Source: Cyanidioschyzon merolae (lineage: Eukaryota). Taken from it: DNA of 64,000 bases. The stretch lies in assembly GCA_000091205.1 (NCBI GenBank), contig AP006483.2, one strand, 5' to 3'. Under the pieces are notes generated by a model that did not search any database, was not told the DNA's origin, and was given only the letters and a program-made list of their open reading frames with translations. Of the stretch, positions 50,227 to 58,077 are shown in pieces (the first letter of the stretch is position 1; each line of letters starts with the position of its first letter). The translations under genes and the position numbers were made by a program.

Positions 50227-50958
50227 TCATACGGCGTCCTGATTTGTCTCCTGAAGGCGGTGCAGTCTTCGAAGATGACGTTTGGAGCGTGCATGATCCC
50301 ACATATCCCGTGCATTCAGCAGGACGACTTGCCGGCAGATCTGACACTGAAAGGTATCCCGCGAGCGCTTCTCGATGGCTGGGGGTAGCACGCTATGATC
50401 GCCGTCGGACTGCGCATCACTACAAGTCGCTCGACTGGTTGAGTGCAACTTCACGATGCGAGCAGTTTTGACTGTGAGCTGTGTCTCAGGGTCGTGCTGT
50501 TGGCGTCGATCGTCTGCACGGCACTGCGGAGCATCGCTCGCCTCGCCCGAGTCGCTCAACACGTCATTCGCTGGGTCGTACGAAGGTTTGGTACTCGAGT
50601 CCATGACAGCGTCTAGCGTAGCCGCATCTCTAGGTGCAACCTGGTAACGGCTGGCTTGCATTCGGGACAGACGGGCGAGTTGGTCTTCGGCGACGTCCTC
50701 CTCCTCTGGATCGGACTCGCTCGCCAACGAGTCGGGTCGATCTCCAGTAGACACCGTCGTCTCGGAGTCCTCGGACTCGCTGGTTGAAGTGAGCGCATCA
50801 TCACCGTACCAGGTGTTCCAGGCGATGCGTTTAATCATGGCGGGTCGGTGGCCTGTGCACGCTTCCCCCTGCAATTGAGACTCCCGAGAGCAGTACTCGA
50901 CGCGATCGCAAACTTTGGCTCTCTGGAACAGAGGATCCGCCACCAGCCGCCAACGCAA
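50227..50958 (-). CDS. Small acidic protein with a C-terminal U1/JAZ-type C2H2 zinc finger.
   Basis: The C-terminus reads FQCQICRQVVLLNARDMWDHARSKRHLRRL (C-x2-C-x13-H-x5-H, ZNF593/Bud20-like). The Ser/Asp/Glu-rich N-terminal part is disordered. The start may be an internal Met (MIKRIAWNTWYG). Confidence 0.4.
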   Translation of the reverse strand: MRWRLVADPLFQRAKVCDRVEYCSRESQLQGEACTGHRPAMIKRIAWNTWYGDDALTSTSESEDSETTVSTGDRPDSLASESDPEEEDVAEDQLARLSRMQASRYQVAPRDAATLDAVMDSSTKPSYDPANDVLSDSGEASDAPQCRADDRRQQHDPETQLTVKTARIVKLHSTSRATCSDAQSDGDHSVLPPAIEKRSRDTFQCQICRQVVLLNARDMWDHARSKRHLRRLHRLQETNQDAV

Positions 50959-51332
50959 GATCCTTACAAGGAAAGTAGCACCCTTTTGAAAAAAAGCGCT
51001 CTTTCACCAACCCCGAGCAGAGAACGGCACCGCTCTTCTGCAACGCCTCCTTTAATACAAAGGCGCACTGCTGGCCAACTGGTGTCTGTTCTCAAGGAAG
51101 AAACTCGGCAAGTTCGGGAATCGGTACCCTTGCCCACCAACCAATCAGATAAACACACCAGCAAGTGGTTCGAGTTTTCCGCTTTGACTCGTTGGAACGA
51201 AGCAACGCCTCCGAGCAAGTCGAGCGCAGTGGATGGTGGAGCTGTTGCGGCCCGAGCCAGCTCGAGATAGAATTCTTTATCCAAGCCGCGCTGAGCATCG
51301 TTTTTCACCCGCGGTGCCACTGGCTTCCACGG

Positions 51333-52844
51333 ATGGTATCCCAGAAAGAGACGTCGCGTGCGGATGAGGTAACTATCACCATTCCAGTAGAGCCTGGTGA
51401 TGCCGAGGCCGGACGAGCGGCTGCTGTGTCGGCAGCTGCCGTGGGGCGCGCTCTCCAGACGGCCTTGCAGCGAAAGGCGTCTGCGGCGCCTCGACTGGCC
51501 CCGCGTGAGGTCTGGCTCTATGACCCTGGCTATACAAGCACGGCCTGCTGTCGCTCTGCAATCACTTTTATTGACGGTGAGAACGGTATTTTGGAGTATC
51601 GCGGGTTTCCAATTGAAGCGCTCGCAACGACCTGCGGCTTCTACACCGTAGCGTACATGCTGCTCGAGGGAACGTTTCCGGCGGACGCAAAGGTGCGCGC
51701 CCAGTTTGCCAAGAGCATTCAACCAGGTCTCGACCTCGACCCTGTTGTCGCAAACGTCGTAGAGAGCTTCCCGCAGGAGGCGCACCCGATGACGGTCTTT
51801 ATGGCTGCGACGGCTGCATTGAGTGCGAGTCGCCCGGCATGGAACCCCGCCCTCGTTCGAGGCGATGGCGGCAGTTTGCGGTTGGTGTATCGCACTCGCG
51901 CTGAACGTCAACGTATCGCACAGGAATGCATTTCGTCACTCACCAGTATCGCTGCAGCGGTTTTCCGTCACATGCGTGGTTGCCCTGTGCGCTTTCCGAA
52001 GAGCACACAGCACCTGCGGGAGCATCCTCTGGATGCCTTTGCCCCTGACGGGTTCGCGCGAGCCTTCCTGCACGCTGCTGACCCCGAAGGCACACTCTGG
52101 CCTGAGCAACGTCATGCATCGGCAGTTTTCGCCGAAACCCTGGATGTCATCTTTGTACTGCATGCAGATCATGAACTGAACTGCTCCACTGCAGCGATGC
52201 GTCACCTGACTTCAGCAGGTTCCGATGTCCTGACCTGTTTGGCAGCTGCGATCGGGGCACTCTATGGACCGTTGCATGGCGGCGCAAATGAGGCAGTTCT
52301 GAACATGCTGGAGGAGATCGGCAGCCCGGAGGCGGTGGAAGCCTTCGTCGCATCCGTGAAGCGTCAGGAACGGAAGCTCATGGGATTTGGTCATCGCGTT
52401 TATCGGAGCTATGATCCACGGGCAAAAATTTTGCGAACGCTAGCACAACAAGTGTTGCGGGAGGCGTCCACGGAAGGTCGTACTGCAAACGGACCGACGA
52501 CTGCGAACGGCGCATCAGACCCGCTGCTGATCATTGCTCAGACGCTGGAGAAGCGAGCACTGGAAGACCCCTACTTTACGGAACGGAAACTCTATCCTAA
52601 CGTTGACTTTTACTCAGGGGTTTTGTATCGCGCGATGGGTTTTCCGAGTGTTTTCTTTACAGTGCTGTTTGCCATTGCGCGCACTGTTGGCTGGCTTGCG
52701 CACTGGATGGAGATGCTCGAACGGGACGCAACGGATGCTGAACGCAAAATCGTACGCCCTCGACAGATCTATATCGGAAAGCGGCGACAACGCATCCCGC
52801 TTGAAGCGGTGGAGAAACGACCTGATCGCCGTTCGAGACTGTGA
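51333..52844 (+). CDS. Citrate synthase, bacterial / plant-peroxisomal type, with a C-terminal PTS1 (-SRL).
   Basis: The signatures are DPGYTSTACCRSAITFIDGENGILEYRGFPIEAL and LHADHELNCSTAAMRHLTSAGSDVLTCLAAAIGALYGPLHGGANEAVLNMLEEIG. These are of the GltA type, not the mitochondrial HSDHEGGN type. The last three residues are S-R-L. The ORF is open upstream to 51165. Confidence 0.9.
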   Translation: MVSQKETSRADEVTITIPVEPGDAEAGRAAAVSAAAVGRALQTALQRKASAAPRLAPREVWLYDPGYTSTACCRSAITFIDGENGILEYRGFPIEALATTCGFYTVAYMLLEGTFPADAKVRAQFAKSIQPGLDLDPVVANVVESFPQEAHPMTVFMAATAALSASRPAWNPALVRGDGGSLRLVYRTRAERQRIAQECISSLTSIAAAVFRHMRGCPVRFPKSTQHLREHPLDAFAPDGFARAFLHAADPEGTLWPEQRHASAVFAETLDVIFVLHADHELNCSTAAMRHLTSAGSDVLTCLAAAIGALYGPLHGGANEAVLNMLEEIGSPEAVEAFVASVKRQERKLMGFGHRVYRSYDPRAKILRTLAQQVLREASTEGRTANGPTTANGASDPLLIIAQTLEKRALEDPYFTERKLYPNVDFYSGVLYRAMGFPSVFFTVLFAIARTVGWLAHWMEMLERDATDAERKIVRPRQIYIGKRRQRIPLEAVEKRPDRRSRL

Positions 52845-56760: not shown

Positions 56761-58077
56761 ATGGATGCACCTGCGCCTGCAGAAAATGACGCGCTTATAG
56801 TGGCTGGAAAGCGTACACCGCTAGGTTGTTTGGGAGGCGCTCTGGCAGGTGTTTCCGCTGTAACCCTGGGTGCTGCTGCGGTACGAGGCGCCCTCGAGGC
56901 CGCCCGCATACCCGGCGCTCTCGTTGAGGAGTGCTATTTCGGCTGCGTCCTGAGCGCGAACCTCGGACAGGCACCTGCACGCCAGGTTGCGTTGCAGGCG
57001 GGCTTACCGGTGACTTGCTGCTGCACGACCGTGAACAAGGTGTGCGCGAGTGGTGCAAAGGCCATAGCGCTGGCCGCACAGTCCATACTTCTGGGGCAGG
57101 CTGATGTAGTCGTCGCCGGAGGCATGGAGAGTATGAGTCAAGCACCCTATTGCATCGGGAATGGCGGCTCTGGTGGGCCTGAGGGCGTTCACCGCGTCCG
57201 CATCGGTGGCCTGCGCCTCTTCGATGCTCAACTCGTTGACAGTATCATGCGAGACGGTTTACTGGATGCATCACCGGCAGGGAAACCTGCGCGCCCTATG
57301 GGATGGTATGCAGATGCCTGCGCTGTCCATCATTCAATCACCAGGGAGGAACAGGACGCGTACACGTTGGAAAGTTACAGACGCGCCCAAATGGGCTGGG
57401 AATCGGGTTCCATGGCCGAAGAAGTCGTCCCTGTCCCGCTGAATTCAGCAGACAGCGCATCGATTGCACGAGATGAGGAGCCGTGGCGTCTCCAAGCCGA
57501 CAAGCTACCGCGCTTACGACCGGCTTTTGATCGAGAGCGAGGCACCGTCACAGCTGCAAATAGTTCCAAGATCAGCGACGGTGCCGCTGCAGTGGTGCTG
57601 GTCTCGCGCCGCAAGGCTCGCGAACTCGGCCTCATTTCCGCTGACAGCGCAGCAGCCGAGGATACGCTTCGTGACGGCAGACGATCTCGTTCCATTTTTC
57701 AACTCGTTGCCGCAGCTGATGCTGAGCGTGAGCCTGAATGGTTCACGCTCGCTCCCGTGACCGCGATTCGCAAGCTCTTCTCGACTCGCTATGGACTTGA
57801 TGCTAGCGACATGGCAAATGTTGATTGCTGGGAAATCAACGAGGCATTCAGTGTGGTGCCTCTGGCAGCGATCCGGGAGCTGCCTCGGATTCGTTCCGAA
57901 CGCCTGAACATGCGAGGTGGTGCGGTATCGTTGGGTCATCCTCTCGGTTGCAGTGGAGCGCGCATTGTTGTCACGCTGTTATCTGTTCTAGAGGAGCACC
58001 AATGGGAATACGGCGTTGCTGCCATCTGCAATGGCGGCGGCGGCGCTACTGCGCTTCTCATTCGGCGACTGGCTTAG
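56761..58077 (+). CDS. Acetyl-CoA C-acetyltransferase (thiolase II, acetoacetyl-CoA thiolase).
   Basis: The active-site Cys is in VNKVCASGAKAI. The His motif is NEAFSVVPL. The C-terminal Cys block is GHPLGCSGARIVVTLL...AICNGGGGATALLI. No N-terminal PTS2 nonapeptide and no C-terminal PTS1 is present. There is a ~35-aa insertion (AAEDTLRDGRRSRSIFQLVAAADAEREPEW) before the C-terminal domain. Confidence 0.9.
   Translation: MDAPAPAENDALIVAGKRTPLGCLGGALAGVSAVTLGAAAVRGALEAARIPGALVEECYFGCVLSANLGQAPARQVALQAGLPVTCCCTTVNKVCASGAKAIALAAQSILLGQADVVVAGGMESMSQAPYCIGNGGSGGPEGVHRVRIGGLRLFDAQLVDSIMRDGLLDASPAGKPARPMGWYADACAVHHSITREEQDAYTLESYRRAQMGWESGSMAEEVVPVPLNSADSASIARDEEPWRLQADKLPRLRPAFDRERGTVTAANSSKISDGAAAVVLVSRRKARELGLISADSAAAEDTLRDGRRSRSIFQLVAAADAEREPEWFTLAPVTAIRKLFSTRYGLDASDMANVDCWEINEAFSVVPLAAIRELPRIRSERLNMRGGAVSLGHPLGCSGARIVVTLLSVLEEHQWEYGVAAICNGGGGATALLIRRLA

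What the first reader, a model, noticed from the sequence alone, without database searches (positions are those of the whole stretch)
51333..52844. A bacterial-type citrate synthase carrying a C-terminal PTS1 (-SRL) instead of the plant-style N-terminal PTS2
The catalytic signatures (LHADHELNCSTAAMR...GPLHGGANEAVLNMLEEIG) are of the GltA / plant-glyoxysomal type, not the eukaryotic mitochondrial HSDHEGGN type. Plant peroxisomal enzymes of this type use an N-terminal PTS2. This protein instead ends in Ser-Arg-Leu, a canonical PTS1. That points to a peroxisomal (glyoxylate-cycle) citrate synthase of bacterial ancestry retargeted via PTS1. The cytosolic-type thiolase and the GalE gene lie 4-5 kb away but do not form an obvious functional cluster. 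The ORF is also open 56 codons upstream of the chosen Met.
Basis: partly seen in the sequence, partly recalled or inferred. Interest (0 to 1): 0.5.

Follow-up and report, generated by a model that had tools for sequence, protein, structure and literature searches.

The report
Red-alga peroxisomal citrate synthase, PTS1-tagged

Summary
Window 51333-52844(+) encodes a 503-aa citrate synthase that ends ...RRSRL-stop. It is 100% identical to XP_005535043.1 of Cyanidioschyzon merolae 10D. It belongs to the GltA / plant-peroxisomal type: the closest solved structure is Arabidopsis peroxisomal CSY3, and the mitochondrial type matches far more weakly. It has no N-terminal PTS2. A PTS1-class tripeptide (SRL, ARL, AKL, ARM, ARL) is kept in the four named or syntenic Cyanidiales orthologues and in one unidentified relative, although the rest of the tail diverges.

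Gonzalez et al. 2011 already list C. merolae as PEX7-absent with a PTS1 citrate synthase. Moriyama et al. 2015 describe three peroxisomal citrate synthase genes plus a mitochondrial CS-4. The PTS2-to-PTS1 switch is the known consequence of losing the PTS2 pathway. PTS1 on this enzyme type also occurs in chytrids and Nannochloropsis.

The "glyoxylate-cycle" label is not supported, because C. merolae is reported to lack isocitrate lyase and malate synthase. The likelier role is turning peroxisomal acetyl-CoA into exportable citrate, but that context is uncertain. The 56 open codons upstream are non-coding.

Novelty: already known. Interest: low.

The parts
51333..52844 (+). Coding sequence of citrate synthase (503 aa plus the TGA stop). 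It is identical to C. merolae 10D XP_005535043.1 / BAM78757.1.
   Evidence: ORF. Pfam PF00285, E = 1.5e-109. 0 differences from P0128.
52833..52841 (+). Codons for the C-terminal Ser-Arg-Leu (PTS1), directly followed by the stop at 52842-52844.
   Evidence: Sequence TCG AGA CTG TGA. Orthologues end ARL, AKL, ARM, ARL. The tail is low-confidence and probably flexible in the AlphaFold model: residues 499-503 have pLDDT < 50.
52158..52202 (+). LHADHELNCSTAAMR signature (residues 276-290), containing the invariant His277 and the catalytic His280.
   Evidence: H277, H280, E281, N283 and C284 are invariant in the 67-sequence alignment A1.
52266..52322 (+). GPLHGGANEAVLNMLEEIG motif (residues 312-330).
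   Evidence: G312, H315, G316, G317, A318 and E320 are invariant.
52392..52394 (+). Catalytic His354, in GFGHRVY.
   Evidence: Invariant in A1; coordinates.
52605..52607 (+). Catalytic Asp425, in PNVDFYSG.
   Evidence: Invariant in A1; coordinates.
51333..51509 (+). N-terminal about 59 residues. This is a divergent counterpart of the N-terminal beta-domain of large (type II) citrate synthases. It has no PTS2, and it is net acidic, so it does not look like a mitochondrial presequence.
   Evidence: Alignment. No R[LIV]x5[HQ]L motif. 6 acidic against 3 basic residues in the first 35.
51165..51332 (+). Upstream open frame of 56 codons with no ATG. It is a non-coding 5' leader, not part of the protein.
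   Evidence: No Met in its translation. Orthologous loci L001, L002 and L003 have in-frame stops close upstream of their start codons.

Best explanation

Proposed mechanism, with the basis for each step:
- The protein is made in the cytosol. Its exposed C-terminal Ser-Arg-Leu is bound by the PTS1 receptor PEX5, and the protein is imported into the cell's single peroxisome. (Import is inferred from the signal and its conservation, and is asserted in the literature. I have not seen direct localisation data.)
- In the peroxisome it condenses acetyl-CoA with oxaloacetate to citrate, using the conserved His280 / His354 / Asp425 triad. (The residues are shown; the activity is inferred.)
- It uses PTS1 rather than the N-terminal PTS2 of its plant, green-algal, amoebozoan and many fungal homologues because the Cyanidiophyceae have lost PEX7 and the whole PTS2 pathway, so former PTS2 cargo had to switch signal. 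(From the literature.)
- Its role is probably not the glyoxylate cycle, since isocitrate lyase and malate synthase are reported absent. The likelier role is to convert peroxisomal acetyl-CoA into citrate for export, as shown for Arabidopsis CSY2/3. (Inferred by analogy, and the least certain step.)
For: Identity: the protein is identical to the annotated C. merolae citrate synthase.

Type: PF00285 over its full length. GltA-type models score 407 and 370 bits against 93 bits for the mitochondrial type. The closest solved structure is Arabidopsis peroxisomal CSY3.

Catalysis: the catalytic and substrate-binding residues are invariant.

PTS1: SRL sits at the extreme C-terminus. ARL, AKL, ARM and ARL are kept in the four named or syntenic Cyanidiales orthologues and one unidentified relative at 50-70% identity, while the preceding tail residues diverge. 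Environmental variants all keep SRL. The chance expectation is 0.0027. The tail is predicted to be flexible.

PTS2 in homologues: many eukaryotic homologues carry R[LIV]x5[HQ]L at residues 3-13, and this protein does not.

Literature:
- C. merolae is tabulated as PEX7-absent with a PTS1 citrate synthase (PMC3178647).
- PEX7 and PTS2 cargo are absent in C. merolae (PMC7710942).
- PEX7 is also absent in Galdieria (PMC8172628).
- There are three peroxisomal citrate synthase genes plus a mitochondrial CS-4 (PMC4586181; PMC6606799).
- No isocitrate lyase or malate synthase is found (PMC6642084).
Against: - I could not read any direct localisation experiment for this protein. Moriyama 2014 (Planta) and the Imoto 2013 peroxisome proteome are not held.
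- Mori et al. 2016 found that the presumed partner beta-oxidation enzymes ACX, MFP and KAT (CMA042C) did not go to the peroxisome as GFP fusions, and that they were absent from the peroxisome proteome (PMC4928187).
- Gonzalez et al. list no peroxisomal malate dehydrogenase for C. merolae. The peroxisomal sources of acetyl-CoA and oxaloacetate are therefore unclear.
- All NCBIfam matches fall below their curated equivalog cut-offs.
- My NJ tree does not resolve where the long-branched Cyanidiales clade attaches.
Confidence: 0.78

Rival explanations
1. One reading: a glyoxylate-cycle citrate synthase working in a glyoxysome-like peroxisome together with isocitrate lyase and malate synthase.
For: The closest characterised relatives are plant glyoxysomal/peroxisomal citrate synthases, and the protein carries a peroxisomal signal.
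Against: A KEGG search reported in PMC6642084 found no isocitrate lyase and no malate synthase in C. merolae, Galdieria or Chondrus. Both are nearly absent from 17 rhodophyte transcriptomes.
Confidence: 0.04
2. The SRL tail is not used in vivo, because it is masked or too weak, and the enzyme acts in the cytosol, for example next to the apparently extra-peroxisomal beta-oxidation enzymes.
For: In Mori et al. 2016, C-terminal-peptide GFP fusions of ACX (which has a predicted PTS1), MFP and KAT did not reach the peroxisome, and the authors propose cytosolic beta-oxidation (PMC4928187). I found no accessible direct localisation data for this citrate synthase.
Against: The PTS1-class tripeptide is strictly kept across Cyanidiales while the neighbouring tail residues change. 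The tail is predicted to be flexible. The enzyme is referred to as peroxisomal by the C. merolae community (PMC4586181).
Confidence: 0.1
3. The gene is a separate, more recent bacterial transfer into Cyanidiales that acquired a PTS1 de novo. On this view it is not an orthologue of the ancestral eukaryotic peroxisomal citrate synthase that switched from PTS2.
For: In the NJ tree the Cyanidiales form a long-branched clade outside both the bacterial and the main eukaryotic clusters. Bacterial hits score almost as high as eukaryotic ones. The C-terminal tail is as short as in bacteria.
Against: The best non-Cyanidiales hits are eukaryotic. A profile built from the eukaryotic clade scores the five sequences 24-45 bits above the bacterial profile. 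They share with eukaryotes the 'NPAL...Y' segment that the bacterial sequences lack.
Confidence: 0.07
4. The enzyme is really a 2-methylcitrate synthase for propionyl-CoA metabolism rather than a citrate synthase.
For: The family contains both activities. The TIGR01800 and PRK14033 models do match, at 278 and 215 bits.
Against: The citrate synthase type I/GltA models score much higher, at 407 and 370 bits. The closest characterised relatives are true citrate synthases.
Confidence: 0.02

Closest known systems
Arabidopsis / pumpkin peroxisomal (glyoxysomal) citrate synthases CSY1-3 (PDB 9x0i)
   Same: Same GltA-like enzyme type and the best structural relative (E = 5e-105). About 45% identity over the core, the same catalytic residues, and a peroxisomal destination.
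   Different: The plant enzymes use a cleavable N-terminal PTS2. This protein has none and ends in the PTS1 tripeptide SRL. It has lineage-specific insertions (about 6, 20, 16 and 4 residues) and a divergent N-terminal domain. The organism has no glyoxylate cycle.
PTS2-to-PTS1 cargo conversion in PEX7-less organisms (C. elegans, diatoms, Cyanidiophyceae)
   Same: This is exactly that phenomenon. C. merolae is listed as PEX7-absent with a PTS1 citrate synthase and a PTS1 acyl-CoA oxidase (PMC3178647).
   Different: None. This gene is one of the tabulated cases.
Nannochloropsis citrate synthase (ARL>) and chytrid / Glomeromycota type II citrate synthases ending SKL or AKL
   Same: Bacterial-type citrate synthase carrying a C-terminal PTS1 instead of a PTS2 (PMC7710942; P0026, P0029, P0045, P0052, P0066, P0070 and P0108).
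   Different: These are independent lineages. Several of these organisms still have PEX7. Their tails are long extensions, whereas the Cyanidiales tail is short.
Dictyostelium peroxisomal citrate synthase CshA
   Same: Same enzyme type in a non-plant eukaryote, and peroxisomal. Dictyostelid homologues are among the top hits (P0047, P0056, P0068).
   Different: It uses a PTS2 (RLNVISGHL-type motif at residues 6-14).
E. coli GltA and other Gram-negative hexameric citrate synthases
   Same: Same family and same signatures. NCBIfam PRK05614 and TIGR01798 are the best models.
   Different: Scores are below the equivalog cut-offs. This protein is eukaryotic and nuclear-encoded, carries a targeting signal, and has a divergent N-terminal domain, so its oligomeric state and NADH regulation are unknown.

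Membership tests
Citrate synthase family (PF00285), large GltA-like / type II subgroup | Full-length match to the citrate synthase domain | tested here: met
   PF00285 E = 1.5e-109, profile positions 1-357 of 357.
Citrate synthase family (PF00285), large GltA-like / type II subgroup | Catalytic His/His/Asp triad and the HADHE / GPLHGGA motifs | tested here: met
   H280, H354 and D425 are invariant in the 67-sequence alignment. Motifs located. The equivalence to pig His274/His320/Asp375 rests on my own knowledge.
Citrate synthase family (PF00285), large GltA-like / type II subgroup | Closer to GltA-type than to eukaryotic mitochondrial-type models | tested here: met
   PRK05614 407 bits and TIGR01798 370 bits, against TIGR01793 93 bits. 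PDB: CSY3 5e-105 against mitochondrial about 1e-17.
Citrate synthase family (PF00285), large GltA-like / type II subgroup | Reaches NCBIfam's curated equivalog cut-off | tested here: not met
   407 < 505 and 370 < 485. The models are tuned to bacteria, and the shortfall fits the lineage-specific insertions and divergence. This lowers 'equivalog of bacterial GltA', not 'citrate synthase'.
Citrate synthase family (PF00285), large GltA-like / type II subgroup | N-terminal beta-domain (LTxxDNRTGKxYExPI) used for hexamer assembly | tested here: inconclusive
   A counterpart is present (VTITIPVEPGDAEAGRAAAV) but is strongly divergent with a 6-residue insertion. The model gives it pLDDT 73-83. The oligomeric state is not testable here.
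Eukaryotic peroxisomal citrate synthase clade (plant CSY1-3, Dictyostelium CshA) | Groups with the eukaryotic rather than the bacterial sequences | tested here: inconclusive
   The NJ tree is unresolved because of the long branch. The eukaryote profile scores 471-478 bits against 426-452 for the bacterial profile. The 'NPAL..Y' segment is shared with eukaryotes.
Eukaryotic peroxisomal citrate synthase clade (plant CSY1-3, Dictyostelium CshA) | N-terminal PTS2 nonapeptide R[LIV]x5[HQ]L | tested here: not met
   None in the first 60 residues of this protein or of any Cyanidiales orthologue, but present in many other eukaryotic homologues.
Eukaryotic peroxisomal citrate synthase clade (plant CSY1-3, Dictyostelium CshA) | Located in the peroxisome | not testable with these tools
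   The literature calls CS-1, CS-2 and CS-3 'peroxisomal' (PMC4586181). The primary paper and the peroxisome proteome are not held.
PTS1 (PEX5-dependent) peroxisomal matrix cargo | Extreme C-terminal tripeptide fitting [SA][RK][LM] | tested here: met
   ...RRSRL followed by the stop. SRL> and ARL> are treated as PTS1 in PMC7710942.
PTS1 (PEX5-dependent) peroxisomal matrix cargo | Signal conserved in orthologues | tested here: met
   ARL, AKL, ARM and ARL in P0002, P0003, P0005/P0138 and P0006, while the preceding tail residues vary. All 99%-identical environmental variants end SRL.
PTS1 (PEX5-dependent) peroxisomal matrix cargo | Accessible, unstructured C-terminus | tested here: met
   In the AlphaFold2 model (mean pLDDT 84.8) residues 499-503 have pLDDT < 50 and the 491-500 block averages 65. 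This is a monomer model, so the evidence is weak.
PTS1 (PEX5-dependent) peroxisomal matrix cargo | PEX5 binding and SRL-dependent import | not testable with these tools
   Needs an experiment.
Glyoxylate cycle enzyme set | Isocitrate lyase and malate synthase encoded in the same genome | tested here: not met
   Checked by literature look-up only: a KEGG search reported in PMC6642084 found neither in C. merolae. The genome itself cannot be searched with these tools.

The most novel reading that the evidence does not exclude
C. merolae keeps PTS1-tagged citrate synthase(s) in a peroxisome that is reported to lack the glyoxylate cycle. According to GFP data and a peroxisome proteome it may also lack beta-oxidation, and no peroxisomal malate dehydrogenase has been identified. 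The enzyme could therefore serve an as yet undescribed peroxisomal acetyl-CoA / oxaloacetate / citrate pathway, or a non-catalytic role. Being conserved across Cyanidiales, it would mark a new function for algal peroxisomes.
Probability: 0.12. Interest if true: 0.45.

Novelty: already known. Interest (0 to 1): 0.1.

Why it matters
The finding matters little as a discovery. The gene is annotated, its PTS1 is tabulated in a 2011 paper, and the cause (loss of PEX7 and the PTS2 pathway in Cyanidiophyceae) is established. It is a clean textbook example of a targeting-signal switch after loss of a receptor. The only open point is metabolic: what a peroxisomal citrate synthase does in an alga reported to have no glyoxylate cycle and apparently non-peroxisomal beta-oxidation enzymes.

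Tried and rejected
- A first guess from composition (about 55-60% GC, intron-less genes) was a trypanosomatid. The exact match to C. merolae rejected it.
- NJ phylogeny (Kimura distances, 122 sequences). The Cyanidiales clade is long-branched and its attachment is unresolved. P0076 grouped with it, but inspection showed that P0076 lacks the Cyanidiales insertions, so that grouping is probably long-branch attraction. No ML software was available.
- I tried to read Moriyama et al. 2014 (Planta) and Imoto et al. 2013 (PNAS) for direct localisation or proteome evidence. Neither is held.
- I looked for the gene's CMAxxxC identifier and for the identities of CS-1, CS-2 and CS-3 in supplements and other papers. 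Nothing was found.
- The other C. merolae citrate synthase paralogues are not among the 120 best hits and could not be retrieved.
- An upstream-extended protein from the GTG at 51165 was rejected: it has no ATG and is not conserved.
- The antisense 315-aa ORF 50964..51911(-) was rejected as a gene: no Pfam hit, and nothing is called there in the orthologous loci.
- A functional cluster with the thiolase and GalE was rejected. The gene order is plain conserved synteny, and the thiolase has no PTS1.

Full report
**What is there**

The frame 51165..52844(+) is open. Its first in-frame ATG is at 51333, and from there it gives a 503-aa protein ending ...EKRPDRRSRL followed by TGA.

The protein matches Pfam PF00285 over the whole profile, E = 1.5e-109. 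Among NCBIfam models the GltA-type ones score best: PRK05614 at 407 bits and TIGR01798 at 370 bits. The eukaryotic mitochondrial model TIGR01793 reaches only 93 bits. All of these are below the curated equivalog cut-offs. Among solved structures the best match is Arabidopsis 'Citrate synthase 3, peroxisomal' (9x0i, E = 5e-105), followed by bacterial hexameric enzymes at about 1e-86. Mitochondrial enzymes match at about 1e-17.

In a 67-sequence alignment H280, H354 and D425, the GPLHGGA motif and several arginines are invariant.

**Whose gene it is**

The protein is identical, with 0 differences, to XP_005535043.1 / BAM78757.1, 'citrate synthase [Cyanidioschyzon merolae strain 10D]'. That record lies on a 422,616-bp contig. 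Hot-spring metagenome variants differ at 1-4 positions, and all end in SRL.

**Start codon**

The 56 open codons upstream contain no ATG. In the orthologous loci L001 and L002 (a 70%-identical relative) and L003 (Cyanidium caldarium) there are in-frame stops 10-14 codons upstream of the start. The upstream stretch is therefore a non-coding leader. The N-terminus is net acidic, with 6 acidic against 3 basic residues in the first 35, so it does not look like a mitochondrial presequence.

**Targeting signals**

No PTS2-like nonapeptide occurs in the first 60 residues. Many eukaryotic homologues of the same enzyme type do carry R[LIV]x5[HQ]L at positions 3-13. These include dictyostelids, chytrids, Andalucia and many unnamed transcripts.

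The close relatives of this protein end as follows:

| Sequence | Source | C-terminal tripeptide |
|---|---|---|
| window protein | C. merolae | SRL |
| P0002 | 70%-identical relative, syntenic with the window | ARL |
| P0003 | Cyanidiococcus yangmingshanensis | AKL |
| P0005 / P0138 | Cyanidium caldarium | ARM |
| P0006 | source not identified, 50% identical | ARL |

The residues just before the tripeptide are not conserved. A terminal [SA][RK][LM] is expected at 0.0027 by composition, and only this one of the 16 long ORFs in the window has it. An AlphaFold2 model (mean pLDDT 84.8) gives the last five residues pLDDT < 50, which fits a flexible tail.

All five sequences share insertions that other homologues lack: the GDGGSLR segment, a loop of about 16 residues and a 4-residue insert. 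They therefore form one orthologous group with a conserved PTS1.

**Why PTS1: already known**

- Gonzalez et al. 2011 (PMC3178647, Table 3) list C. merolae as PEX7 absent, acyl-CoA oxidase PTS1 and citrate synthase PTS1. They cite earlier in-silico work that found no PTS2 sequences.
- PMC7710942 states that PEX7 and PTS2 cargo are absent from C. merolae. It also notes a PTS1 (ARL>) citrate synthase in Nannochloropsis.
- PMC8172628 finds PEX7 absent in Galdieria too.
- Moriyama et al. [quoted passage not shown] The mitochondrial localisation of CS-4 is cited as confirmed (PMC6606799).

PTS1 on this enzyme type is also recurrent. Several chytrid, Allomyces, Acaulospora and unnamed homologues end in SKL or AKL.

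**What is wrong in the interpretation**

The 'glyoxylate-cycle' role is not supported. A KEGG search reported in PMC6642084 found neither isocitrate lyase nor malate synthase in C. merolae, Galdieria or Chondrus, and both are nearly absent from rhodophyte transcriptomes. The C. merolae literature instead assigns these citrate synthases to handling acetyl-CoA from beta-oxidation. That is analogous to Arabidopsis CSY2/3 (Pracharoenwattana 2005, listed; the function is from my own knowledge).

This context is itself shaky. Mori et al. 2016 (PMC4928187) could not localise ACX, MFP or KAT (CMA042C) to the peroxisome, and report that these enzymes are absent from the isolated-peroxisome proteome. 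Gonzalez et al. list no peroxisomal malate dehydrogenase for C. merolae.

**Ancestry**

The best non-Cyanidiales hits are eukaryotic, but bacterial hits score almost as well. My NJ tree shows Cyanidiales as a monophyletic long branch whose attachment is unresolved. A profile built from the eukaryotic clade scores the five sequences at 471-478 bits, against 426-452 bits for a bacterial profile. They also share the 'NPAL...Y' segment that the bacterial sequences lack. I take this as moderate support for descent from the ancestral eukaryotic peroxisomal enzyme followed by a signal switch. A separate transfer from bacteria is not excluded.

**Surroundings**

The gene order in the window is:
- mRNA capping enzyme
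- CAP-Gly protein
- histidine phosphatase
- unknown protein
- citrate synthase
- UDP-glucose 4-epimerase-like
- thiolase
- photolyase/cryptochrome

This order is identical in L001 and L002. The citrate synthase-epimerase pair is also kept in Cyanidium. This is synteny, not a functional cluster. The thiolase ends in RLA, and in RVS in the relative, so it has no PTS1.

**Verdict**

Noticed in passing
window 56761-58077 (+): The thiolase (Thiolase_N and Thiolase_C domains) ends in RLA, and its orthologue in L001/L002 ends in RVS, so it has no PTS1 and no conserved tail. By inference it is KAT CMA042C, the only chromosome-A thiolase listed by Mori et al. 2016, which they found not to be peroxisomal. 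The 'AAL' thiolase footnoted by Gonzalez 2011 must be a different gene.
   Followed up: partly
window 40091-63933; L001/L002 1-17503; L003 4253-10718: The gene order capping enzyme, CAP-Gly, His_Phos_1, unknown, citrate synthase, epimerase, thiolase, photolyase is conserved in a 70%-identical relative. Only capping enzyme, His_Phos_1, unknown, citrate synthase and epimerase are kept in Cyanidium caldarium.
   Followed up: yes
protein P0004 (868 aa; metagenome contigs): This is a tandem fusion of two citrate synthase domains. The second copy has altered active-site motifs (HADHGQSTSATTMR, GPKHGGATSHV), suggesting a catalytic/pseudo-catalytic pair. It is seen in 8 cluster members from several sources.
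   Followed up: no
proteins P0026, P0029, P0045, P0052, P0066, P0069, P0070, P0075, P0108, P0117 and P0094: Many non-red-algal eukaryotic type II citrate synthases (chytrids, Allomyces, Acaulospora, unnamed) end in SKL, AKL or SKM instead of carrying a PTS2. P0094 has both a PTS2-like motif and a CKL ending. The signal type has therefore switched repeatedly in this enzyme family.
   Followed up: partly
window 51333-52844, residues about 172-180, 217-262, 378-396 and 464-467: Insertions specific to the Cyanidiales are present: the RGDGGSLRL segment, a variable loop of 20-40 residues (His-rich in P0006), a loop of about 16 residues (EGRTANGPTTANGAS) and a 4-residue insert. The N-terminal domain is strongly divergent. 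The effects on oligomerisation and regulation are unknown.
   Followed up: partly
window 50964-51911 (-): A 315-aa antisense ORF overlaps the 5' end of the citrate synthase gene. It has no Pfam hit and nothing is called there in the orthologous loci, so it is probably a chance ORF in GC-rich DNA.
   Followed up: yes
window 50227-50958 (-): This ORF has no Pfam hit, but an unannotated gene sits at the same syntenic position in L002 (207 aa) and L003 (192 aa). Sequence similarity between them was not tested. Its C-terminal part contains a C-x2-C...H-x5-H zinc-finger-like motif (FQCQICRQ...DHARSKRH).
   Followed up: no
cluster 1 (P0121-P0134): Hot-spring metagenomes hold a population of C. merolae-like citrate synthase alleles that differ at only four or five sites (V13I, H261R, V339I, G436D, I481V) in various combinations. 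The pattern suggests recombining natural variation.
   Followed up: no
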